Of a stretch of DNA of 63,538 bases, positions 364 to 22,922 are shown one piece after another (position 1 is the first letter of the stretch; each line of letters begins with the position of its first letter). The position numbers and the translations under genes are program-made. Below the pieces are notes generated by a model. It made no database searches, was not told where the DNA came from, and saw nothing but the letters and a program-made list of their open reading frames with translations. Source of the stretch: Treponema sp. (lineage in GTDB: Bacteria; Spirochaetota; Spirochaetia; Treponematales; Treponemataceae); contig JBAXYY010000001.1 in the NCBI GenBank assembly GCA_041670585.1, positions 1-63,538 on the forward strand, written 5' to 3'.

Positions 364-831
364 ATGCGCTGCCCTTACTGCGGAAGTCTTGACGACAAAG
401 TAATTGAATCACGAACAATGGCAAACGGAGAAAGCATCCGCCGAAGACGCGAGTGCATTAGCTGCGGCTATCGTTTCACAAGCTACGAGCATATTGAAGA
501 AAAGCCTTTCATGGTTGTAAAAAGGGACGGAAGACGCGAGCCTTTTGACAGGACAAAGCTTGAAAAGGGAATACAGCGCGCTCTTGAAAAACGCCCGGTC
601 TCAACTTCAATGGTTGACCAAATTGTAAATGAAATAGAGGACGAAGCTTACACCAAAGGCAAGGCCACAAGGGAAATCTCAACCACGGAATTAGGAGAGC
701 TTGTGCTGCAGAGGCTTCATGCAGTTGATAAAGTTGCATATATAAGATTCGCAAGTGTTTATAAGCATTTCAACAATCTTGATGAATTCATAAATGAGGT
801 AAATAAGTTGGGAGGGGAAAAAAGTGAGTGA
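364..831 (+). CDS. nrdR: Transcriptional repressor NrdR
   Basis: MRCPYC...RRRRECxxCxxRFTSYE zinc ribbon, ATP cone, VAYIRFASVY. Confidence 0.97.
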   Translation: MRCPYCGSLDDKVIESRTMANGESIRRRRECISCGYRFTSYEHIEEKPFMVVKRDGRREPFDRTKLEKGIQRALEKRPVSTSMVDQIVNEIEDEAYTKGKATREISTTELGELVLQRLHAVDKVAYIRFASVYKHFNNLDEFINEVNKLGGEKSE

Positions 832-2947
832 ACAGTCTGTGTTCCCTGAGTGGAAAAGCTTCCTAGGGACAAACAAAGATGCAGAAACTGCGCATTTTTT
901 AACTAAAGTTGTAAAAAGGTCAGGCGAAATTGCAAACTATGACCGCAGCAAAATTGAAAGCGCTATTGGCAAGGCAATTACAGCCGTTGAAAAGCGTGCA
1001 AACCCGGACAAGGCGCAAATGCTCACTGACCAGGTGGAAGAGCATTTAAGAGTGCTTCTTGCGGGGCGGCGAGCACATTCAATTCCAGCAATTGAAGAGA
1101 TTCAGGACACTGTGGAAACAGTTCTCATTGAATGCAAGGAAGTCGAAGTCGCAAAGGCCTACATTCTTTACCGCGCAAAGCATGACGCTATGAGGGACGC
1201 AAAAAGCCTCATGGTTGACATCTCTAAGACAATGGACGGCTACCTTTCACAGAGCGACTGGCGTGTCAATGAAAACGCGAACGTCAACTTCTCATTGGGC
1301 GGCCTTATTCTCCACAACTCAGGAACTGTAACAGCGAACTACTGGCTTAAAAACATATACACACCTGAAATTGCAAACGCACATGAAACTTGCGCATTCC
1401 ATATACACGACCTTTCCATGTTCTCTGGATACTGCGCCGGCTGGTCATTAAGGCAGCTTATACAGGAAGGTCTTGGCGGAGTTCCAGACAAAATCACTTC
1501 TACCCCTGCCACACACCTTTCCACCCTTGTTAACCAGATTGTCAACTTTTTAGGCATTATGCAGAACGAATGGGCGGGCGCTCAGGCTTTCTCTTCTTTC
1601 GACACATACCTTGCTCCTTTTGTTAAAAAAGACAACCTTACAGAAAAACAGGTGCGCCAGTGCATACAAAGCTACATCTACGGAGTGAACACGCCAAGCA
1701 GATGGGGCTCACAGGCACCTTTCACAAACATAACTCTTGACTGGGTCTGCCCTAACGACTTAAAGAACCAGAAGGCTATTGTTGGCGGCAAGGAGCAGGA
1801 CTTCACATACGGCGACTGTCAGAAGGAAATGGACTTGATCAACAAGCAGTTCATCAAGTTGATGCTGGAAGGAGATGCCGCGGGCAGAGGATTCGGCTAC
1901 CCTATTCCTACATACAATATCACAAAGGACTTCGACTGGGACAGCGAGAACGCACAGCTTCTTTTTGAAATGACAGCCCAGTACGGCACCCCTTACTTCC
2001 AGAACTTTGTGAACTCAGACTTAAACCCAAGCGACGTACGCTCAATGTGCTGCCGCCTTAGGCTTGACAAACGCGAGCTTCGTAAAAGAGGCGGCGGACT
2101 GTTCGGCTCCGACGAATTCACAGGCTCACTTGGAGTTGTTACAATCAACCTGCCGCAGATTGGCTATCTTGCAAAAAATGAAAAGGAATTCTACGCGCGT
2201 CTAGACTATCTTATGGACCTTGCGCGTGACAGCCTTTCTATAAAAAGAAAAGTCATACAAAAGCTTTTTGACGGCGGGCTCTACCCTTACACAAGGCGCT
2301 ACCTTAAAAACTTCAACAACCACTTCAACACAATTGGATTATGCGGCATGAACGAATGCTGCCTTAACTTCCTTGGAGTGAACATTGCAGATGAAAAAGG
2401 CAAGCAGTTCGCGTGCGATGTCCTGGACCACATGAGAAACAGGCTGCAGGACTATCAGGAAAAGACAGGAGAGCTCTTTAACCTAGAGGCCACCCCTGCG
2501 GAAAGCACAAGCTACCGTTTGGCACGCCACGACAAGCAGAACTTCCCTGACATAATCACAAGCGGAACAGACGACCCGTTCTACACAAACAGCACACAGC
2601 TACCTGTAGACTACACTTCAGACATTTTTGAAGCGCTTGACCATCAGGAGGCACTGCAGACAAAGTACACAGGCGGAACTGTATTCCACACATTCATGGG
2701 CGAGCAGATAAAGGACTGGAAGGCTTGCCGTGACTTGGTGCGCACAATAATGAGCAACTACCGCATACCTTATGTGACAATAAGCCCAACCTACTCAATC
2801 TGCAAAATCCACGGCTATCTTAACGGACAGCAGTTCGAATGCCCAAAATGCAAGGCGGAAAAGGAGCAGGCGTTAAAGGCAAAGCTTGCGTCGCTTGAAG
2901 CAGAGCGTGATCAGGTTGAAGCTTCGCAGAGCAACGTAAACGCTTAA
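824..2947 (+). CDS. nrdD: Class III (anaerobic) ribonucleoside-triphosphate reductase, large catalytic subunit lacking the glycyl-radical loop
   Basis: N-terminal ATP cone, HIHDL, GYCAGW, SMCCRL finger loop, NLEATPAES, YTGGTVFH, CxxH...CPxC zinc site; no RIVGYY motif before the stop; GTG start overlaps the nrdR 3' end. Confidence 0.95.
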   Translation: MSEQSVFPEWKSFLGTNKDAETAHFLTKVVKRSGEIANYDRSKIESAIGKAITAVEKRANPDKAQMLTDQVEEHLRVLLAGRRAHSIPAIEEIQDTVETVLIECKEVEVAKAYILYRAKHDAMRDAKSLMVDISKTMDGYLSQSDWRVNENANVNFSLGGLILHNSGTVTANYWLKNIYTPEIANAHETCAFHIHDLSMFSGYCAGWSLRQLIQEGLGGVPDKITSTPATHLSTLVNQIVNFLGIMQNEWAGAQAFSSFDTYLAPFVKKDNLTEKQVRQCIQSYIYGVNTPSRWGSQAPFTNITLDWVCPNDLKNQKAIVGGKEQDFTYGDCQKEMDLINKQFIKLMLEGDAAGRGFGYPIPTYNITKDFDWDSENAQLLFEMTAQYGTPYFQNFVNSDLNPSDVRSMCCRLRLDKRELRKRGGGLFGSDEFTGSLGVVTINLPQIGYLAKNEKEFYARLDYLMDLARDSLSIKRKVIQKLFDGGLYPYTRRYLKNFNNHFNTIGLCGMNECCLNFLGVNIADEKGKQFACDVLDHMRNRLQDYQEKTGELFNLEATPAESTSYRLARHDKQNFPDIITSGTDDPFYTNSTQLPVDYTSDIFEALDHQEALQTKYTGGTVFHTFMGEQIKDWKACRDLVRTIMSNYRIPYVTISPTYSICKIHGYLNGQQFECPKCKAEKEQALKAKLASLEAERDQVEASQSNVNA

Positions 2948-2998: not shown

Positions 2999-3052
2999 GA
3001 AATATAGTGTAGTTTGCTTTACAAAAGAGTAAAACTACGCTATATTTAGTGT
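2995..3052 (+). promoter_or_regulatory. Tandem NrdR boxes and sigma70 promoter for the glycyl-radical subunit gene
   Basis: TGTCGAAATATAGTGT (2995-3010, 11/16) and ACGCTATATTTAGTGT (3037-3052, 14/16), 42 bp apart; TTTACA(3018)-N17-TATATT(3041) overlaps the second box. Confidence 0.75.
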
Positions 3053-3175
3053 ACTTAAAGGCTGTTAAAGGCCCGCACTAAAATATATAAAAAACGTAAT
3101 GTCATTACGTGCAAAGTTTTGAATTATGCCCTGTAAAGCCAGGGAAGTAAAGTAATTCTCGGGAGGATATTACTT

Positions 3176-3754
3176 ATGGAAACAGCAAAAAGAACATTGG
3201 CACAAATCGATGCCGAAATCGCAGAGACAAAGGACGAGCTAAAGAACGTCCATGGAACAGAAACAGAAGTCTACGCAAGAATCGTAGGCTACTACCGTGC
3301 TGTACGCAACTGGAACAAAGGCAAGCGTGATGAATTTGACCACCGCAAGATGTTCTCAATTGAAGACAGCAAGGAATATAATATTACAGAAGCAGACGGC
3401 GCTGATTGTGGCTGCAAAATGGAAAATGTAACAAAAGCAGCAAAATCTTCAACAGCCGCAACAGTGGCTTCAAATTTAGTGTCAGGAGAAACAGCCGCAA
3501 GCTACGAGATGTTTGTTAGACAAACATGCCCTAACTGCCCTCCTGTAAAACAGTACATGGCAAATGTAAGCATTGCAGGAAAATCAATTGATGTTGACAC
3601 AGACGCAGGCCTCCAGCTAGCAGCCGCAAAAGGAGTGTTTGCAACTCCAACAGTAATAATCTACAGCCAGACAGGCGCGGAAATTGGAAGAGCGCATACA
3701 ACTTCAGAGCTTGACGACATTCTTGTCACAGCAAAAGAAGCAGTTCTAGCTTAA
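3176..3754 (+). CDS. Stand-alone NrdD glycyl-radical domain fused to a C-terminal glutaredoxin/thioredoxin-like domain
   Basis: RBS GGGAGGA; TEVYARIVGYYRAVRNWNKGKRDEFDHR is the NrdD C-terminal Gly-radical motif; C-terminal CPNCPPVK...IDVD...GVFATPTVII redoxin-like fold. Confidence 0.88.
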   Translation: METAKRTLAQIDAEIAETKDELKNVHGTETEVYARIVGYYRAVRNWNKGKRDEFDHRKMFSIEDSKEYNITEADGADCGCKMENVTKAAKSSTAATVASNLVSGETAASYEMFVRQTCPNCPPVKQYMANVSIAGKSIDVDTDAGLQLAAAKGVFATPTVIIYSQTGAEIGRAHTTSELDDILVTAKEAVLA

Positions 3755-3821: not shown

Positions 3822-3910
3822 GCATCAAGTTTCATCAACCAAAATGGAAGAATCTATAAACATAAGCTTTCAAAAAAGTCAAATATATTCAAAACGTGGG
3901 AAGAAGTAAA

Positions 3911-4699
3911 ATGTCAGACAATCTTTTAGACACACCAGCAGGCTCTTTAATAAAAACAACACTTGTTGACTTTCCAAGCAGGGTCGCAAGCACAATATTC
4001 TTGGAAGGATGCAACCTACGCTGCCCCTACTGCTACAACACAAGCCTTGTCCTGGGCACTCAAAAATCAAATGAAGCGCCTGCAAAAGAAAACAACTTCA
4101 ACAGGGACTACAAATGCTCAACGTTACGAGAGGCCATAGATCACCTTGAAAAACGCCGCAATGTTCTTACAGGCCTTGTAATTTCAGGCGGGGAGCCTCT
4201 TTTGAACCCACGAACGCCTGTTTTAATAAAGGAAGCAAAAAAACTTGGATATAAAATAAAGCTAGACACAAACGGCACTCTTCCAGACAGGCTTCAGTCG
4301 TTCATAGAGGACGACGAGCTAAAGCCAGACTACATTGCAATGGACATAAAGACTTCACCTTCAAGATCATATCTTCTTGCAAGCGAGTCATCTAAAAAAG
4401 ATGCCGATGTAAAAGACGAGCTTGAGCATTCAATAGAACGCTCTGTAAAAATAATATCGCAGTTCCCAAAAGACTGCCGTGAATGGCGAACAGTTCTTGT
4501 GCCGCCGCTTGTAAAAGAAGAAGACATAAAAGAAATAGCCGCTGTTCTTCCAAAAGATGCACGTTGGTACTTTGCCCAGTTCAGAAATGAAAACTGCATA
4601 GACCCTTCATACAACAAGATCGACCCTTACTTGGACAGGGACTTAAAGCGCCTAGTAGAATACGCCAAATCGCTAATAGAAGGCGCCGAATTCCGCTAA
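3911..4699 (+). CDS. nrdG: Anaerobic RNR activating enzyme (radical SAM)
   Basis: TLVDFP, GCNLRCPYC (CxxxCxxC), SGGEP, KLDTNG, AMDIKT; ATG 3911 preferred over GTG 3896. Confidence 0.92.
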   Translation: MSDNLLDTPAGSLIKTTLVDFPSRVASTIFLEGCNLRCPYCYNTSLVLGTQKSNEAPAKENNFNRDYKCSTLREAIDHLEKRRNVLTGLVISGGEPLLNPRTPVLIKEAKKLGYKIKLDTNGTLPDRLQSFIEDDELKPDYIAMDIKTSPSRSYLLASESSKKDADVKDELEHSIERSVKIISQFPKDCREWRTVLVPPLVKEEDIKEIAAVLPKDARWYFAQFRNENCIDPSYNKIDPYLDRDLKRLVEYAKSLIEGAEFR

Positions 4700-4746: not shown

Positions 4747-4758
4747 CTCAACATTCGT

Positions 4759-4831
4759 GGTGGCATAGTTCAGTTGGTAGAACAACGGACTCATATTCCG
4801 TATGTCAGAGGTTCGATCCCTCTTGCCACTA
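4759..4831 (+). tRNA. tRNA with CAT anticodon (probably elongator Met; Ile2 not excluded)
   Basis: GGTGGCA/TGCCACT acceptor stem, ACGGA-CTCATAT-TCCGT anticodon arm, GGTTCGATCC T arm. Confidence 0.9.
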
Positions 4832-4837
4832 AACATA

Positions 4838-7878: not shown

Positions 7879-8871
7879 ATGGAAAAATTCAATCTCGAGA
7901 AGCTTGCTCAAAGCTATGCTGACGGCACTATGTCGCCAAAAGAGTGTTCGTTGAAACTTATGGAATACGTTTTCCTTCACAAGTCGCTTTTTGGATTAAG
8001 AAGTTTAGACGAAGATGATTTTCTAGACTTCTTACTTTACGAGATGCCTAAATTCGACAGGATTTTTATTCTTTATGATAAAAAAATAGGCACATTCTTT
8101 TCATTCCTACAGTTTACATTAAGGAAAGCTGTAAATGTTTGGAAAAAAATTGAAATAAGAAGCAAAGTTCTAGATGATGAAATTACGACTTCTCAGAAGA
8201 TTCAGATAGAGGAAGATTCTGAAACATATGAGCTTGAGGCAGAAGGCATAGAGTTTATTAAGCAGGAAGATAATTCTAAAATAGAACTTAGCGTGCAGTC
8301 CCCGTTTCAATTTGATAATGACATGACTTATAGATTAGACAAATATAAAGAAGACGATGTAAAGAAAAATAAAATTGCAAATATTCAGAAGGAAATTGTA
8401 TTGATTTTAGCATTAAAATCAATCTTTTATATTGATGATGAATTGATCGACAAAGTTTGCGCCTATACTGGCGTTGATAAAGAAACATTTTTATCTATGC
8501 AGAAGACCCTGAACGCAGAACTTAAGACAAAAATAAAGAGAAGAGAGTCTTGTGTAAAATGCAGGAACAACTCTTATTATTTTCATAGAAAATACTTGCA
8601 GGAATTGCAATATCTTTCTCCACACACTTCATGGTGCAGGCTTATTCAGGAAAAATACGAAAAGCATACTCAAAGTTGGATAAATAAAAACACCCGTTTG
8701 AAAAGAAAAGACTATTATGTTTCAGCCTCTAATCGCGCTGTTGGAAAAGTGCTCAATCTTGACCCTCGCCATGTAAAATATATTCTTGACAAGGCTAACA
8801 ATGTGGACTTATTCAAGCCAAAACAGTATCATATTTCACATGAAAATATATCTTGCAACAGGCAATCTTAA
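7879..8871 (+). CDS. Hypothetical protein, divergent sigma70-family-like
   Basis: RBS AAGGAG; YDKKIGTFFSFLQFTLRKAV resembles sigma region 2.3-2.4; SNRAVGKVLNLDPRHVKYILDKA resembles the region 4.2 HTH. Confidence 0.55.
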   Translation: MEKFNLEKLAQSYADGTMSPKECSLKLMEYVFLHKSLFGLRSLDEDDFLDFLLYEMPKFDRIFILYDKKIGTFFSFLQFTLRKAVNVWKKIEIRSKVLDDEITTSQKIQIEEDSETYELEAEGIEFIKQEDNSKIELSVQSPFQFDNDMTYRLDKYKEDDVKKNKIANIQKEIVLILALKSIFYIDDELIDKVCAYTGVDKETFLSMQKTLNAELKTKIKRRESCVKCRNNSYYFHRKYLQELQYLSPHTSWCRLIQEKYEKHTQSWINKNTRLKRKDYYVSASNRAVGKVLNLDPRHVKYILDKANNVDLFKPKQYHISHENISCNRQS

Positions 8872-9669: not shown

Positions 9670-9711
9670 CAGGCAGAAAGGATTCTGTCTGGTACATAAT
9701 TCCATGGAGGA
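9670..9711 (+). promoter_or_regulatory. Putative CsrA-binding sites in flaB leader
   Basis: Hairpin CAGGCAGAA-AGGA-TTCTGTCTG with GGA in the loop, plus ATGGAGGA overlapping the SD; csrA/fliW lie in the window. Confidence 0.6.
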
Positions 9712-9718
9712 AAAAAAT

Positions 9719-10579
9719 ATGGTCATCAACCACAACATGTCCGCAATGTTTTCTAATCGTTCTTTAGGAGTAACTAATCTTAACCTTCAGAAAGATATGG
9801 AAAAACTCTCATCTGGAGAAAAAATCAACCGCGCTGGCGACGATGCTTCAGGACTTGCAGTTTCTGAAAAAATGCGTGCTCAAATTCGCGGTTTGAATCA
9901 GGCTTCTAAGAATGCACAGAATGGTATTAGCTTCATACAGACAACAGAAGGTTATCTGCAGGAAACAACTGATATTATGCAGCGTATTCGTGAGCTTGCT
10001 GTCCAGAGTTCCAACGGTATCTACAGCGATGAAGACCGTATGCAGATTCAGGTCGAAGTAAGCCAGTTAGTAGCTGAAGTTGACCGTGTTGCAAGCCAGG
10101 CTCAGTTCAACGGCATGAATATGCTCACAGGACGCTTTGCCCAGGCAACTGGTGAAAACACACCAACAGGTTCTATGTGGCTCCACATTGGCGCAAACAT
10201 GGATCAGCGTATGAGCGTTTTCATTGGTACAATGACTTCTGCATCACTCGGAATTCGCGAAATTGGAACAGAAGCAGTTATGACAATTGCGGCTCCGGAC
10301 GATGCCAACCGCGCTATAGGCACAATCGATATTGCTCTTAAAAAGATCAATAAACAGCGTGCAGATCTTGGTGCTTACCAGAACCGTCTTGACTATTCTG
10401 TAAAGGGACTGAACATTGCATCTGAAAATACTCAGGCTGCAGAATCAACAATCCGCGATACAGACATGGCCTCACAGATGGTAAACTTTACTAAGAACCA
10501 GATTCTTACACAGGCAGGAACAGCAATGCTTGCACAGGCTAACAGCCAGTCACAAACAGTATTGTCTTTGCTTAAATAG
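9719..10579 (+). CDS. flaB: Flagellar filament core flagellin (FlaB1-like)
   Basis: [17 protein letters not shown]...[27 protein letters not shown]. Confidence 0.97.
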
Positions 10580-10591
10580 TGTAGTATAATT

Positions 10592-10630
10592 GTTAGTGGA
10601 AGAAGTGGAGAAATCTACTCTTCCGCTAAC
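10592..10630 (+). terminator. Hairpin after first flaB
   Basis: GTTAGTGGAAG-AAGTGGA-GAAA-TCTACT-CTTCCGCTAAC. Confidence 0.55.
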
Positions 10631-10924
10631 TGTGCGGTGTGATTTTACCTCTTAATTCTTCTTCTTTTACAATCAAATCAAACCGTTTTAACAGTGAGCA
10701 TTTGCCCTTTTATTTGGAAAGGGTTTGTTCTTTGAAAATGCTCTTCATGTATACTGTGAACAGTGTGAACAGTTATTTTTTATTGTACAAGGCATTAAAA
10801 TAAAATAACAGTTCCTGCTGTATAGGTCTAAATCAACCGACGGGGGCGCAAAAACCGTCAGCTGCCTGCACAGTAAAGGCGTAAAGCATGATGCTTTATG
10901 TACTGTCACATGGAGGACAAAATT

Positions 10925-11779
10925 ATGGTAATTAATCACAACATGAGTTCAATGTTTGCTAACCGTACACTGGGCGTTTCTGACCAGCAGTTGATGGGCA
11001 ATATTGAAAAGCTTAGCTCTGGAGAAAAAATCAACAGGGCCGGTGATGATGCTTCAGGACTTGCTGTATCTGAAAAGATGCGCAGCCAGATTCGCGGATT
11101 AAACCAGGCTAATAAGAATATCCAGAACGGTGTTTCTTTTATCCAGGCAACAGAGGGATATCTTCAGGAAACTCAAGACATTCTTCAGCGTGTCCGTGAA
11201 CTTTCAGTTCAGTCTGCCAACGGAATTTATTCCGATGAAGACAGAATGCAGATTCAGGTTGAAGTTTCCCAGTTGGTAGCTGAGGTTGACCGTGTAGCGA
11301 GCCAGGCCCAGTTCAACGGTATGAATACACTGACAGGAAGTTTTGCACAAAACTCTGTTTCAGGACGTGTCATGCAGTTCCAAATTGGAGCAAACGTAGA
11401 TCAGAATGCACGTGTCTACATTGGCACAATGACTGCTCAAGCTCTTGGTCTTAGAGGAACACAAGGTTCCAACGAGATGTTAAGCATTTCTACACCAGAC
11501 GTTGCAAATATGGCTATTGCTACAATTGATAGCGCGCTGCAATCTGTTTCTCGCCAGAGAGCTGACTTGGGTGCTTATCAGAATCGTTTCACAATGGCTT
11601 CCAACGGTGTTGCAGTTGCAGCAGAAAACCTTCAGAGCGCGGAATCTGTAATCCGTGATACTGACATGGCTTCTGAAATGGTAAACTACACAAAGAATTC
11701 AATTCTTACACAGTCTGGAACAGCAATGCTTGCACAGGCAAACAGCCAGTCTCAGAACGTTCTTGCATTATTGAAGTAA
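10925..11779 (+). CDS. flaB: Second flagellin (FlaB3-like)
   Basis: Flagellin N- and C-terminal motifs; ATG after ATGGAGGA. Confidence 0.96.
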
Positions 11780-11900
11780 AGTAAAAATCATGCTTAGAGT
11801 TTAAGAGAGACCTGGATGTCATCTTTTAACAAAAAGCATGTAGGAGTAAGGAGGGGTGCGCCCCCTTCCCTCTCTTGCATTTTCAGGAGGAAACAAGTCC

Positions 11901-12287
11901 ATGAATACAATAAGTAGTAATGGACAGACGATGGCAATGGATGGCCGCACGCTTAATACCTCCGCAGTAGCATCTCAAGTAAAAAAGAGTTCGGTAGATT
12001 TACCTAAAACAAGTACTCTACCTTCAAGTTCTGCGGAAGTTGCACAGAATATTGCCAATAATCTGGCTAATGTAAAAGAAGATGTCGCCCAGCTGCAAAA
12101 GCTGTCCGATATAGCTATGGGTCACAAGCTTCAGTTCAATGTGAATGAAGACCTTGGTGAAGTAATTATCAAAGTTGTTGATCCTAAGACAAATCAAACA
12201 ATAAGAGAAATTCCATCTGCTGATGTACAAAAAATGCAAATGAGAATTAGCAAAGTAATAGGATTGATATTTGATGAAATGATCTAA
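11901..12287 (+). CDS. flaG: Flagellar protein FlaG
   Basis: LQFNVNEDLGEVIIKVVDPKTNQTIREIPS...GLIFDE; between flaB and fliD; RBS AGGAGG. Confidence 0.88.
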   Translation: MNTISSNGQTMAMDGRTLNTSAVASQVKKSSVDLPKTSTLPSSSAEVAQNIANNLANVKEDVAQLQKLSDIAMGHKLQFNVNEDLGEVIIKVVDPKTNQTIREIPSADVQKMQMRISKVIGLIFDEMI

Positions 12288-12389
12288 GGCTTTAACGCTG
12301 TTACAAGGCAGCGTTGGTCTTATTTCAATTTATTAAGCATTCAGTTTTGTACTGCATGAAAAGATTCATAAATAGGAAGCAGAAAATCT

Positions 12390-14468
12390 ATGGCCGACAG
12401 TATTAGCATTCCTGGAGTTTCAGACAAGTATAATACAAGCGACCTTATAGAAAAGCTAATGGCTGTTGAAAAAAAGCCATTGAATAGAGAAAAAGAATCT
12501 CTAGAAAAATATAAAACACAGCAAACTGCTTGGCGCGACTTAAATCAGAAAATGTCTGATTTGCGTACAAGTGTAAAAGACTTATATTCATTTGAAAATC
12601 CTTTTAACAATAAGTTAGCCTCTTCAACAGATGAAAATGCTATAACAGCAGAAGCTAGCCGTGAAGCAGAATATGGCACTTTTAAAATTGATGTTCTAAA
12701 TCCAGCAACAGCAGACAGGTTTTTAAGTGGTAACATTGACAAGAACATGGAAGTACCAGCAGGTGTCTATGACTATACAGTTGGCGACAAGACTGTGCAT
12801 TTTAATTGGAAAGGCGGCAAACTAAGCGACTGGGTCTCTGGACTAAACAAAAGAGGAAATCAAACTGTAAAGGCAAGCCTTATTGGTGTTTCAAAAGACA
12901 AGCAGACACTTTTAATTGAAAGCCTTAAAACAGGACAAGAGAACAAACTGCAGTTCAAGGAAGAGGCACTTAACTTTGCAAAATCAACAGATATGCTTAA
13001 AGATGTTAAATCAGAAACATCAACTTTCAGCTCTTCTGTTTCATCATATAAAACGCCATCCACTACAGATGATGTTGTTCAAAAAAACATGCCATCAATT
13101 TCAAAGGACAATGTTACTTCTGACGGCAAAAATTTAAAGATTCCTGCTAGAGGCGGTGTGGAAATTGAAATACCCCAGTCAACAAAATCCAACCTTAACA
13201 ACAAAATTGAATTTACTTATTCAGAAAAATCAACAGAAGATATTACAACCTCTATAAACAACAAGGCTTCAGGGCCTTCAATTCCATTATCTGGTGGAAT
13301 AGAATTCAAAGGCGTAAGTGTAGACAACAATCAGAGCGAAACAACACTTTCTCAAATTTCAGAAGAAGAAAAAACTCCTGTTGTTCCAATTTCAAACGGC
13401 AGCACTGTTTTTTTTAAAAATGCAGACGGCACAGAAGAAGAAGTAAACACTTCGAACTTTCAAACAGACGGTGAAACTGGCAAAAAGACAATTTCCATTG
13501 CAATGAAGGATTATCCAAACGCAGAAAGCATTGTTATAAGAAACAGCAGCACAGGAAAAGAAATATCTGTTTCTGTTCCTGAATCATTTGACTCTTCAAA
13601 AGACTTGGGCTATGCGCCGTCACATGCAATTACAACAGCGGATGACGCAAAATTTAAATACGAAGGAATAACTCTCACTCGTTCTACAAATGATGTTGAT
13701 GATGTTGTTCCTAATGTCACCCTTCACATTCATGAGACAACAGACAAAACTGCAACAATAAAAATTTCACCTGACAAAGACAGCGCAAAAAACGCTTTGA
13801 TTACTTTTGTAGGAAAATACAATCAGACTATTGCAGAAATGAATATTCTTTCTCAAGACAAGCCTGAGCTAATTTCAGAGCTTGACTACCTTACTGACGA
13901 TGAGAAAGAGTCAGAAGAAAAAAAACTTGGCATGTTCCAGGGAGATTCCATTCTTTCAAACGGAAAGACTTCTCTTCAAAGAATTGTCTCCGCAAGCTAC
14001 AAATACTCTGACGAAGACACTTTGACTATGCTGGGGCAGATTGGCATTTCAACAAACGCAAGCTCTTCTGGCGGCGGTTACAATGCTACAAAGCTTCGTG
14101 GTTACCTTGAAGTAGATGAAAAGAAACTTGACACTTCACTGGAAACTGACCTTGAGCAAATAAAGCAGATCTTTGGATTTGACAGCGACGGAGACTTAGT
14201 TATTGACAACGGCATTGGCTACAAGCTAGATAAGCAGCTTACTGCATGGGTTCAGTCCGGTGGAATAATTGCTACAAAAAATTCCACCCTAGACAAGACA
14301 ATTAAGAATTCTAATGAAAAAATAGCAAAACTAGAAACTCAAATGGAAGATAAGGAATCTGAATTAAAATCAAAATACGCTTCAATGGAAGGCTCTATAA
14401 ACAGCCTTGAGTCACAATCAAGTACAATAAGCAATTTCTCTAAACAGAATAGCGGTAACAGCAATTAG
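12390..14468 (+). CDS. fliD: Flagellar filament cap protein FliD
   Basis: N-terminal IEKLMAVE, TRSTNDVDDVVPNVTL, C-terminal KYASME...LESQ; gene context. Confidence 0.93.
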   Translation: MADSISIPGVSDKYNTSDLIEKLMAVEKKPLNREKESLEKYKTQQTAWRDLNQKMSDLRTSVKDLYSFENPFNNKLASSTDENAITAEASREAEYGTFKIDVLNPATADRFLSGNIDKNMEVPAGVYDYTVGDKTVHFNWKGGKLSDWVSGLNKRGNQTVKASLIGVSKDKQTLLIESLKTGQENKLQFKEEALNFAKSTDMLKDVKSETSTFSSSVSSYKTPSTTDDVVQKNMPSISKDNVTSDGKNLKIPARGGVEIEIPQSTKSNLNNKIEFTYSEKSTEDITTSINNKASGPSIPLSGGIEFKGVSVDNNQSETTLSQISEEEKTPVVPISNGSTVFFKNADGTEEEVNTSNFQTDGETGKKTISIAMKDYPNAESIVIRNSSTGKEISVSVPESFDSSKDLGYAPSHAITTADDAKFKYEGITLTRSTNDVDDVVPNVTLHIHETTDKTATIKISPDKDSAKNALITFVGKYNQTIAEMNILSQDKPELISELDYLTDDEKESEEKKLGMFQGDSILSNGKTSLQRIVSASYKYSDEDTLTMLGQIGISTNASSSGGGYNATKLRGYLEVDEKKLDTSLETDLEQIKQIFGFDSDGDLVIDNGIGYKLDKQLTAWVQSGGIIATKNSTLDKTIKNSNEKIAKLETQMEDKESELKSKYASMEGSINSLESQSSTISNFSKQNSGNSN

Positions 14469-22237: not shown

Positions 22238-22310
22238 GGTGCCTGTAGTTCAGCGGTAGAATCCCAGATTGTGGATCTGGTTGTCGTGGGTTCGATACCC
22301 ACTAGGCACC
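22238..22310 (+). tRNA. tRNA-His(GTG)
   Basis: G-1 plus GTGCCTG/TAGGCAC acceptor; CCAGA-TTGTGGA-TCTGG. Confidence 0.95.
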
Positions 22311-22343
22311 CTAAGCCGAACCTCAGGGAACGGTTGCCGAGAC

Positions 22344-22417
22344 GCGTTCGTAGCTCAACTGGATAGAGCAATGGACTTCGAATCCGTAGGTTGCACGTTC
22401 GAACCGTGTCGGACGCA
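22344..22417 (+). tRNA. tRNA-Arg(TCG)
   Basis: ATGGA-CTTCGAA-TCCGT anticodon arm; cloverleaf. Confidence 0.93.
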
Positions 22418-22464
22418 AAAATGTAATTGAAGTTCCAGTTAATACGGAATTGCAATACGATTTC

Positions 22465-22537
22465 GGGCGATTAGCTCAGTTGGTAGAGCAACAGACTCTT
22501 AATCTGTGGGTCGGGAGTTCGAGCCTCCCATCGCTCA
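22465..22537 (+). tRNA. tRNA-Lys(CTT)
   Basis: ACAGA-CTCTTAA-TCTGT. Confidence 0.95.
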
Positions 22538-22595
22538 AATGTTTTGGGTTTGATTCTAATTCTGTGTAATGCTGGTCAGATACCATTGCATTAAT

Positions 22596-22676
22596 GCGAG
22601 AGTGGTGGAATTGGCAGACACGCCAGACTTAGGATCTGGTGCCCTAGGCATGAGGGTTCAAGTCCCTTCCCTCGCA
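22596..22676 (+). tRNA. tRNA-Leu(TAG)
   Basis: CCAGA-CTTAGGA-TCTGG; extended variable arm. Confidence 0.95.
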
Positions 22677-22697
22677 TAGCTTTTGAAACTTATTTTT

Positions 22698-22769
22698 GCG
22701 GGAATAGCTCAGTAGTAGAGCGCAACCTTGCCAAGGTTGATGTCGCGGGTCCGATTCCCGTTTCCCGCT
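22698..22769 (+). tRNA. tRNA-Gly(GCC), copy 1 (A18, C55 variant)
   Basis: GCGGGAA/TTCCCGC acceptor, CAACC-TTGCCAA-GGTTG. Confidence 0.93.
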
Positions 22770-22841
22770 CTATTGCTTTACAGCAAAGATTATTTGACAT
22801 TTATGAAGTAATTTTTGCACGGACACTCCGTAGCAATTTTT

Positions 22842-22913
22842 GCGGGAATAGCTCAGTAGTAGAGCGCAACCTTGCCAAGGTTGATGTCGCGGGTCCGATT
22901 CCCGTTTCCCGCT
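22842..22913 (+). tRNA. tRNA-Gly(GCC), copy 2 (identical to copy 1)
   Basis: Exact duplicate of 22698-22769. Confidence 0.93.
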
Positions 22914-22922
22914 CTAAACAGA

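What the first reader, a model, noticed from the sequence alone, without database searches (positions are those of the whole stretch)
3480..3754. Redoxin domain (CPNC) fused to the glycyl-radical carrier: built-in reductant for a thiol-dependent NrdD
Seen: after an Ala/Ser/Thr-rich linker (with an extra CGC), the small subunit ends in YEMFVRQTCPNCPPVK...IDVD...GVFATPTVII, a glutaredoxin/NrdH-like fold with CxxC and the TP cis-Pro motif. The large subunit has SMCCRL, DWVCP and GMNE. From my recollection of the family, these residues characterise thioredoxin-dependent (non-formate, NrdD2-type) class III RNRs. Inference: one small protein delivers both the radical and the reducing equivalents, an architecture I do not recognise as characterised.
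Basis: partly seen in the sequence, partly recalled or inferred. Interest (0 to 1): 0.8.

Follow-up and report, generated by a model that had tools for sequence, protein, structure and literature searches.

The report
Two-chain anaerobic reductase with built-in thioredoxin
This spirochaete encodes its oxygen-sensitive DNA-precursor enzyme as two proteins, and the small one joins the predicted radical-carrying glycine loop to a predicted thioredoxin-fold domain that likely supplies the electrons needed after each turnover, a widespread layout for which I found no experimental study.

Summary
ORF 3176-3754 (192 aa) is the missing C-terminal piece of a split class III ribonucleotide reductase: helix, glycyl-radical loop (G38), variable linker and a thioredoxin-fold CPNC domain. 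The large chain (824-2947) has the NrdD2 signature (C204, MCCR, E555). The diagnostic Glu lies in NLEATP, not GMNE; DWVCP is not diagnostic; the retained Met leaves formate use open.

The domain is likely the enzyme's reductant (0.72). CxxC is kept in 149 of 150 diverse homologues. Single-chain NrdD-CPNC relatives have a thioredoxin-reductase-like gene directly downstream in 53 of 73 loci. Against necessity, one genus lost the domain but kept the catalytic signature.

The split is real (78 of 78 loci; halves 500-600 kb apart in two complete genomes). The halves are predicted to rejoin through a coiled coil. Fourteen virus records carry only the small chain, hinting at a replaceable radical module.

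Precedents are a characterised Grx-NrdB fusion and one listed, untested Grx:NrdD. Nine literature searches found no study of this layout. The scan reported it three times before on other genomes; one report was later marked in doubt. Verdict: new variant of a known kind, interest 0.62.

The parts
364..831 (+). nrdR, transcriptional repressor of RNR genes
   Evidence: TIGR00244 188 bits, over cut-off
824..2947 (+). Large chain of the split class III RNR (707 aa): ATP-cone, catalytic barrel, zinc ribbon, C-terminal helix; no glycyl-radical loop
   Evidence: PRK08270 1102 bits; PF13597 positions 1-532 of 562 only; none of five RxxGY variants present and stops in all three frames between the ORFs
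1433..1435 (+). C204, the betaA cysteine (T. maritima C125)
   Evidence: phmmer alignment to 4coi; position
2045..2056 (+). Finger-loop motif M408-C409-C410-R411 (double Cys, Met retained)
   Evidence: meaning from Burnim 2022
2486..2488 (+). E555 in NLEATP, the NrdD2 active-site glutamate (T. maritima E495)
   Evidence: alignment; present in 78 of 78 loci holding the large gene
2801..2851 (+). Zinc ribbon ligands C660, H663, C673, C676, just before the split point
   Evidence: sequence; invariant in alignment A2
2852..2929 (+). C-terminal amphipathic heptad helix of the large chain (residues ~677-702), predicted coiled-coil partner
   Evidence: hydrophobic residues at tail positions 8, 12, 15 in 97-98 of 98 pairs and at 22 in 88%; heptad-spaced contacts in the complex model
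3037..3052 (+). NrdR-box-like site overlapping a predicted -10 element (3018-3046): likely a separate NrdR-controlled promoter for the small gene and nrdG
   Evidence: 2 mismatches to a recalled consensus; promoter-like match 10 of 12; 45 of 75 related intergenic regions have 3 or fewer mismatches vs 0.7% of shuffles
3176..3754 (+). Small chain (192 aa): helix, glycyl-radical loop, linker, thioredoxin-fold domain; GGAGG ribosome site at 3162-3166
3194..3250 (+). N-terminal heptad helix of the small chain (residues ~7-25), predicted coiled-coil partner
   Evidence: AF2 helix 8-23; hydrophobic at head positions 3, 6, 10, 17, 20 in 94-100% of 98 pairs; contacts
3260..3355 (+). Glycyl-radical loop TEVYARIVGYYR...F; predicted radical G38 at 3287-3289
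   Evidence: PF13597 positions 532-562, 30.8 bits, over cut-off; invariant
3356..3487 (+). Low-confidence, variable linker with the non-conserved CGC (3407-3415)
   Evidence: pLDDT under 50 for 65-67 and 82-105; Gly-to-CxxC spacing 40-233 aa, median 72, in 143 homologues
3488..3739 (+). Thioredoxin-fold redoxin domain (residues ~105-188): C118-P-N-C121 at 3527-3538, T157-P158 at 3644-3649
   Evidence: CxxC in 149 of 150 homologues
3896..4699 (+). nrdG (NrdG2-type radical SAM activase)
   Evidence: TIGR02495 139.9 bits, over cut-off 131.15

Best explanation
The 192-aa protein is the detached C-terminal piece of a two-chain NrdD2-type class III ribonucleotide reductase, predicted to dock on the 707-aa catalytic chain through a coiled coil and its glycine loop, and its CPNC thioredoxin-fold domain likely re-reduces the active-site disulfide after each turnover, with electrons likely coming from NADPH through thioredoxin reductase. 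Shown by sequence and tools: the split, the domain order, the fold and the C204/C409/C410/E555 set. Inferred from characterised NrdD2 enzymes: NrdG places a radical on G38; it passes to a finger-loop Cys; reduction of the substrate leaves a disulfide between C204 and a finger-loop Cys. Inferred: the flexibly tethered C118/C121 pair reduces that disulfide, directly or after it moves onto the mobile CC loop, and is itself recycled by the TrxR encoded on contig C106. The domain is likely a convenient rather than an obligatory reductant, since free thioredoxin can probably stand in for it, and formate use through M408 is not excluded.
For: Fold and CxxC. CxxC in 80 of 80 best genome loci and 149 of 150 profile hits at the 50% level; both sets were selected by a query that includes the domain. 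The catalytic chain has the third Cys plus Glu that define NrdD2, the class listed as thioredoxin-reduced. Every redoxin-bearing NrdD whose motifs I could read is SMCCR + NLEATP: 75 of 75 and 78 of 78 readable Treponema loci; 66 and 73 of 76 single-chain loci, not readable in the rest. The six single-Cys NrdDs I looked at, intact or split, carry no redoxin. Single-chain relatives with the same CPNC domain (31% identical to the small chain over 143 aa) have a TrxR-like gene within 300 nt downstream in 53 of 73 loci, and somewhere in the locus in 58 of 73 (26 of 34 de-replicated groups). The own genome has TrxR over cut-off and no glutamate-cysteine ligase or ferredoxin:thioredoxin reductase was found (83% complete). 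Four of five relatives tested that carry this enzyme have no PFL-like gene but all five have TrxR. Complex model of the two chains: ipSAE 0.84, best of 3 controls 0.00; the mark was reached by 116 of 157 solved and 2 of 215 mismatched pairs; runs agree in at least 66% of contacts; partner pLDDT at least 68. Halves of a split gene can pass by likeness to solved NrdD, but the heptad-spaced helix contacts (677-702 with 7-25) are absent from the single-chain relatives. Precedent: the fused Grx of F. ignava NrdB is an efficient RNR reductant.
Against: No activity data. In genus g15 (9 of 9 genomes matched only the helix and loop) and in G351 the redoxin is gone, while the four large chains read still have MCCR and E, so it is not obligatory. 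M408 is retained (formate possible) and the own genome has a PFL-like gene. No TrxR-like gene lies in any of 89 spirochaete loci, so the TrxR link for this copy is by extension. The TrxR-like gene of L214 scores 297 bits, under the TIGR01292 cut-off of 343. Four of the five PFL-tested genomes also hold a class I/II RNR, which weakens the argument from missing PFL. How any redoxin reaches the buried NrdD2 disulfide is itself unsettled.
Confidence: 0.72

Rival explanations
1. The domain is a maintenance reductant: it keeps cysteines reduced so that NrdG can install the radical, or repairs oxidised thiols after oxygen exposure, while formate (through M408) supplies turnover electrons.
For: Thioredoxin has an activating role in the formate-using E. 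coli class III RNR (Lundin 2015 passage). Met is retained. The genome has a PFL-like gene. The domain sits on the same chain as the NrdG substrate, and small gene and nrdG stay together when separated from the large gene.
Against: The domain was seen only with double-Cys + Glu enzymes, never on the six single-Cys NrdDs examined, which need activation too. The same genome keeps a separate single-Cys NrdD without it. Relatives without a PFL-like gene keep this enzyme.
Confidence: 0.14
2. The domain is redox-active but largely redundant: free TrxA does the physiological reduction and the fusion is a tolerated passenger.
For: Lost in genus g15 and in G351 with the catalytic signature intact. The genome has a free thioredoxin.
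Against: CxxC is kept in 149 of 150 homologues clustered at 50% identity and in both Spirochaetota and Bacillota forms; the Cys pair is absent or partner-less only in two decayed remnants (L022, L024) from genomes holding another intact NrdD.
Confidence: 0.09
3. The CPNC (with the linker CGC) binds a metal or Fe-S cluster and acts as a structural or redox-sensing switch rather than as an electron shuttle.
For: Extra linker cysteines occur in 87 of 120 close homologues with exactly two and in some single-chain relatives.
Against: Linker cysteines are absent in 98 of 143 diverse homologues. CxxC plus the conserved Pro is the standard oxidoreductase arrangement. TrxR-like neighbours point to electron transfer.
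Confidence: 0.04
4. The split is an assembly error or a decaying pseudogene, and the redoxin is an unrelated neighbour read in frame by chance.
For: The window comes from an 83% complete assembly that also has a second intact NrdD.
Against: Same split point in 78 of 78 loci; complementary helices; own ribosome site and NrdR-box-like site; halves far apart in complete genomes.
Confidence: 0.01

Closest known systems
NrdD2 thioredoxin-dependent class III RNR (Neisseria bacilliformis; Thermotoga maritima, PDB 4COI/4U3E)
   Same: betaA Cys, double-Cys finger loop, active-site Glu, zinc ribbon, glycyl-radical loop, NrdG activase
   Different: Those are single chains with SCCR (no Met) reduced by a free protein. 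Here the radical loop is on a second gene, Met is retained and the redoxin is tethered.
Facklamia ignava Grx::ATP-cone::NrdB (class I RNR; Rozman Grinberg 2018, PMC6187632)
   Same: Redoxin fused to the radical-bearing subunit and shown there to reduce the holoenzyme: the closest functional precedent
   Different: Class I, N-terminal, CPWC, in an organism encoding gshF, and acts on a class I NrdA. Here class III, C-terminal, CPNC, no glutathione-site motif, likely TrxR-dependent.
Single-chain NrdD with C-terminal redoxin in Bacillota (e.g. Clostridium sp. CAG:349 CDD09262.1; the Grx:NrdD entry of Lachnospiraceae bacterium TWA4, subclass NrdDd, may be of this kind)
   Same: Same PRK08270 family, SMCCR, NLEATP and CPNC domain; grouped with the spirochaete forms on one side of a 100-support branch
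   Different: One chain, no coiled-coil helices, usually followed by a TrxR-like gene. Only a table entry in print; I did not see the TWA4 sequence, so its domain order is unchecked.
NrdH-redoxin (class Ib; and the NrdD3-associated NrdH listed in PMC9176816 Table 1)
   Same: Small Grx-sized dithiol reduced by TrxR-type systems and dedicated to an RNR; structural match to 1h75, Z 8.2
   Different: Free protein in its own gene; no NrdH family model was listed; NrdD3 lacks the Glu that is present here.
Split class II RNR NrdJa/NrdJb (Pseudomonas aeruginosa)
   Same: Catalytic barrel and the C-terminal electron-shuttling part on separate chains
   Different: B12 enzyme; the small chain carries a zinc finger with a Cys pair, not a radical glycine or a thioredoxin fold.
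GrcA/YfiD and phage T4 Y06I spare-part glycyl radical proteins
   Same: Small separate protein bearing the radical glycine, also found in phage
   Different: They repair an enzyme (PFL) that has its own loop; here the large chain has none, so the small chain is obligatory. [quoted passage not shown]

Membership tests
Thioredoxin-fold dithiol oxidoreductases | Four-stranded sheet with flanking helices (thioredoxin fold) | tested here: met
   AF2 elements E107-114 H121-130 E134-139 H143-151 E159-164 E169-173 H176-191; Z 11.6, rmsd 1.8, 82 aligned to 6mos
Thioredoxin-fold dithiol oxidoreductases | CxxC between first strand and helix; conserved Pro before the third strand | tested here: met
   C118, C121, P158 invariant in 27 rows; cis geometry itself not checked
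Thioredoxin-fold dithiol oxidoreductases | Disulfide reductase activity | not testable with these tools
   needs an assay
Glutathione-dependent glutaredoxin | Glutathione-site GG-D motif after the Pro, and host glutathione synthesis (motif recalled) | tested here: not met
   GG-D pattern in 0 of 150 homologues; PF00462 under cut-off; no PF04262 found in the 83% complete genome
NrdH-redoxin | Free-standing redoxin gene beside class Ib nrdE/F/I (RNRdb criterion) | tested here: not met
   fused domain in a class III locus; no class I/II large subunit found in the genome. It may still work like NrdH.
Class III RNR (NrdD) | NRDD barrel, zinc ribbon, glycyl-radical loop, adjacent NrdG | tested here: met
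   PF13597 1-532 on the large chain plus 532-562 on the small; TIGR02495 over cut-off
Class III RNR (NrdD) | Radical glycine on the C-terminus of the catalytic chain itself | tested here: not met
   on a separate gene here and in 78 of 78 loci; hence a variant
NrdD2 (Wei subtype) | Third Cys in the finger loop plus active-site Glu (definition as quoted in PMC4493059) | tested here: met
   C409/C410 and E555 = T. maritima E495
NrdD2 (Wei subtype) | Turnover with a thioredoxin system | not testable with these tools
   context only
Thioredoxin-only NrdD subclades (Burnim 2022) | Glu present and finger-loop Met absent | tested here: not met
   M408 present; SMCCR in 75 of 75 readable loci
NrdD1 formate-dependent | Single-Cys MGCR loop, no Glu | tested here: not met
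   met instead by the genome's second NrdD on contig C20 (MGCR, YYTPAE)
GrcA/YfiD spare-part proteins | PFL-type Gly radical domain duplicating the C-terminus of an intact enzyme | tested here: not met
   no PFL-type Gly radical family listed; the partner chain has no loop of its own

The most novel reading that the evidence does not exclude
The small chain is an exchangeable radical-plus-reductant cartridge. Oxygen cleavage at G38 would destroy only a 21-kDa, separately regulated protein that clips onto the 80-kDa catalytic chain by a coiled coil. Phages of spirochaetes carry their own cartridges (helix + glycine loop, one with the redoxin, no catalytic chain) to restore or commandeer the host enzyme. 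This would be the first built-in spare-part system for a class III RNR.
Probability: 0.3. Interest if true: 0.85.

Novelty: new variant of a known kind. Interest (0 to 1): 0.62.

Why it matters
How a protein reductant reaches the buried disulfide of redoxin-dependent class III RNRs is unresolved. A tethered redoxin on a separately expressed chain makes it directly testable: the small chain can be swapped or mutated without touching the barrel. The redoxin-fused NrdD2 group looks common in gut Treponema and Bacillota, yet the 2018 RefSeq survey listed a single Grx:NrdD and no spirochaete, and several small chains are annotated as hypothetical proteins. If the small chain is exchangeable, it extends the spare-part principle beyond pyruvate formate-lyase and gives a function to tiny phage genes now unexplained.

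Tried and rejected
(1) Complex model: no residue of the redoxin (105-192), and neither C409 nor C410, is among the confident contacts. This says nothing for or against docking of the redoxin.

(2) RNA runs (4 of 18 listed runs laid, all contigs, of related strains rather than this one): summed contig depth was higher over about 3026-3650 than over the large gene in X3 and X4. The tool states contig depth cannot rank genes, so I do not use it.

(3) The search for longer proteins with the redoxin region found none among 294 candidates. This was a false negative: such proteins exist.

(4) The breadth search with the single-chain protein was filled with near-identical copies, so it gave no range.

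(5) Order of events (fusion first or split first) is not resolved. Both trees are quick searches with midpoint roots. Single-chain spirochaete forms need 3 changes; one origin of the helix-type split is not rejected (AU p 0.168) but not shown. Only 5 redoxin-less rows served as outside group.

(6) GMNE and DWVCP as NrdD2 determinants, and the linker CGC as a conserved shuttle pair: rejected.

(7) In the window alone two NrdR-consensus matches at 3 or fewer mismatches are within chance (33 of 100 shuffles); the case rests on the cross-locus count.

(8) Wei 2014 (PNAS) and Wei 2015 (Biochemistry) are not held; their text and supplements could mention redoxin-fused or split NrdD. File 1 of the PMC6187632 supplement could not be searched.

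Full report
Locus. The window carries nrdR (364-831), a 707-aa NrdD lacking its last 30 profile positions (824-2947), a 192-aa ORF (3176-3754) and nrdG (3896-4699), all on the + strand. The named close relatives are almost all Treponema or other spirochaete records. The large ORF ends after the zinc ribbon in a helix. All three frames between the ORFs hold stops and the small ORF has its own ribosome site.

The domain. HMM scores are marginal (Glutaredoxin 21 bits, cut-off 22.9). The AlphaFold2 model is confident over 111-180 and matches thioredoxins: Z 11.6, rmsd 1.8 over 82 residues to 6mos; Z 9.3 to cGrx1 7c10; Z 8.2 to NrdH 1h75. C118, C121 and P158 are invariant in 27 aligned homologues. 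CxxC is present in 80 of 80 best genome loci and in 149 of the best 150 profile hits among 50%-identity representatives; both sets were picked by a query that includes the domain. None of the 150 has a GG-D glutathione-site pattern (motif recalled). The linker varies from 40 to 233 residues between Gly and CxxC and has no Cys in 98 of 143.

The catalytic chain. Alignment to T. maritima NrdD puts C204 on C125 and E555 (NLEATP) on E495, the residue Burnim 2022 uses as the proton-donor Glu. GMNE falls on E445 and has equivalents in other solved NrdDs and in this genome's single-Cys NrdD, so it is not diagnostic. The third Cys plus Glu defines NrdD2. MCCR keeps the Met, which Burnim reads as components for either formate or thioredoxin.

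Context for the electron path. The genome (83% complete) has TrxR, TrxA and a PFL-like gene. No class I/II RNR, glutamate-cysteine ligase or ferredoxin:thioredoxin reductase was found. It also has a second, intact single-Cys NrdD with its own nrdG. A public scaffold labelled phage (L214) holds a single-chain 802-aa NrdD ending in a homologous CPNC domain, flanked by nrdG and a TrxR-like gene that scores under the family cut-off. Among 80 metagenome loci of this kind, 76 could be parsed: all were single-chain and 74 had CPNC. Of the 73 with at least 600 nt downstream, 53 had a TrxR-like gene within 300 nt and 58 somewhere in the locus (26 of 34 de-replicated groups). None of 89 spirochaete loci had one. 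Atlas clusters with ATP-cone + NRDD + Glutaredoxin are mostly Bacillota where phylum is known, and the small-chain clusters mostly Spirochaetota. Four of five relatives tested lack a PFL-like gene and all five have TrxR, but four also hold a class I/II RNR.

The split. All 78 of 80 loci that include the large gene are split at the same place. In 98 pairs both new ends show a 3-4 hydrophobic repeat, and single-chain relatives lack both helices. The complex model scored 0.84 against 0.00 for the best of 3 controls (mark reached by 116 of 157 solved and 2 of 215 mismatched pairs; at least 66% contact agreement; partner pLDDT at least 68). It shows heptad-spaced contacts between large 677-702 and small 7-25, and the glycine loop packing on the barrel. 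Likeness to solved NrdD can explain the pass as a whole. In complete genomes G055 and G237 the halves lie about 600 and 500 kb apart, and in G376 about 130 kb; small gene and nrdG stay together. An NrdR-box-like site precedes the small gene here (3037-3052) and in 45 of 75 related intergenic regions (0.7% of shuffles; 45 of 62 regions of 60 nt or more, 0 of 13 shorter). The consensus is recalled; it finds a 1-mismatch site before the second nrdD.

Range and variants. Of 301 Spirochaetota genomes, 152 matched the profile; by my count of the listed rows at least 43 have the split redoxin form and 3 a single-chain redoxin form, and 79 matches were not listed. Genus g15 (9 of 9) and G351 have the helix and loop without the redoxin, with MCCR and Glu kept in the four large chains read. 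Other lineages split without helices, and three single-Cys NrdDs are split as well. In quick trees all redoxin-bearing forms, Bacillota and spirochaete, fall on one side of a fully supported branch against few outside rows; the order of fusion and split is unresolved.

Viruses. Of 39 viral loci, I picked the 14 with a helix-bearing small chain and no large chain within 4 kb. In all 14 whole records the only NRDD match was the glycine loop, including 4 of 4 records at least 90% complete. Terminase, head, primase or helicase genes lie nearby in five of the seven loci scanned. L221 carries the redoxin too.

Literature. Read as passages: PMC9531940, PMC9176816, PMC4390871, PMC5704485, PMC11226230, PMC2795772, PMC3019208, PMC9110341, PMC13450708, PMC8683613. 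Read as passages plus sections: PMC9669993 (parts 4-5 of section 3) and PMC4493059 (sections 13, 15). PMC6187632: passages plus supplementary file 2 whole. Wei 2014 and 2015 were seen only through these. A Grx fused to class I NrdB is a proven reductant, and the same paper lists one Grx:NrdD with no experiment and no spirochaete. Searches gave no listing that describes a split class III RNR or tests a redoxin-fused one; most subscription papers are outside the library.

Verdict. A real, conserved architecture. It works like a thioredoxin-dependent NrdD2 with an F. ignava-style tethered reductant (0.72), and it is a variant rather than a plain member because the radical loop is on a second chain. 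This scan reported the layout three times before on other genomes; I saw those notes after forming the reading, and tested the split, fold and helix claims here. Interest 0.62.

Noticed in passing
G000:C20:8287-11272 (L030, L031): A second, intact 808-aa single-Cys NrdD (MGCR, YYTPAE, likely formate type) with its own nrdG and a 1-mismatch NrdR-box-like site at 8243: the genome holds two class III RNRs with likely different reductants.
   Followed up: partly
L215-L224, L227, L230, L232, L233 (viral records G420-G433): Virus records carry only the small chain (helix + glycine loop; L221 with the CPNC redoxin) and no catalytic chain; possible spare part or decoy for the host enzyme.
   Followed up: partly
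L174 3860-4015, L175 3645-3806, L179 3919-4173, L173 3480-3650 (positions on the gene's strand): Lone 52-85 aa glycine-loop peptides without a helix and with no nrdD in the 7-kb stretch; three look prophage-like to me (not tested), one precedes a radical-SAM-like gene.
   Followed up: no
L199-L201 (G349, G092, G112): Single-Cys (MGCR) NrdDs are also split, with a 54-58 aa RIRRITGYL peptide before nrdG, so detaching the glycine loop has happened more than once.
   Followed up: partly
L172, L176-L178, L180-L184: A second split type in other Spirochaetota: MCCR large chain ending without the heptad helix, and a 50-67 aa glycine peptide without helix or redoxin.
   Followed up: partly
L022 (G014), L024 (G012): Decayed remnants behind nrdR: a 269-aa frame of nrdD debris fused to a redoxin lacking the first Cys, and a lone 90-aa redoxin frame; both genomes hold an intact single-Cys NrdD elsewhere.
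   Followed up: partly
L165-L166 (G055, G237): Redoxin-less small chains end in a CDCPP-containing tail that may be a relic of the lost linker and domain.
   Followed up: no
L214 (MT835493.1 43473-51859): A record labelled bacteriophage holds nrdG, single-chain nrdD-redoxin and a TrxR-like gene next to an integrase-like ORF; probably host DNA flanking a prophage.
   Followed up: partly
P0258 (320 aa): A database protein reads glycine loop + redoxin + NrdG in one chain; real fusion or read-through error not checked.
   Followed up: no
window 4758-4832: tRNA-Met directly after nrdG; six more tRNAs at 22239-22914.
   Followed up: no
window 9704-14468: Two tandem flagellin-like ORFs followed by FlaG-like and FliD-like ORFs, judged from the translations only.
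   Followed up: no
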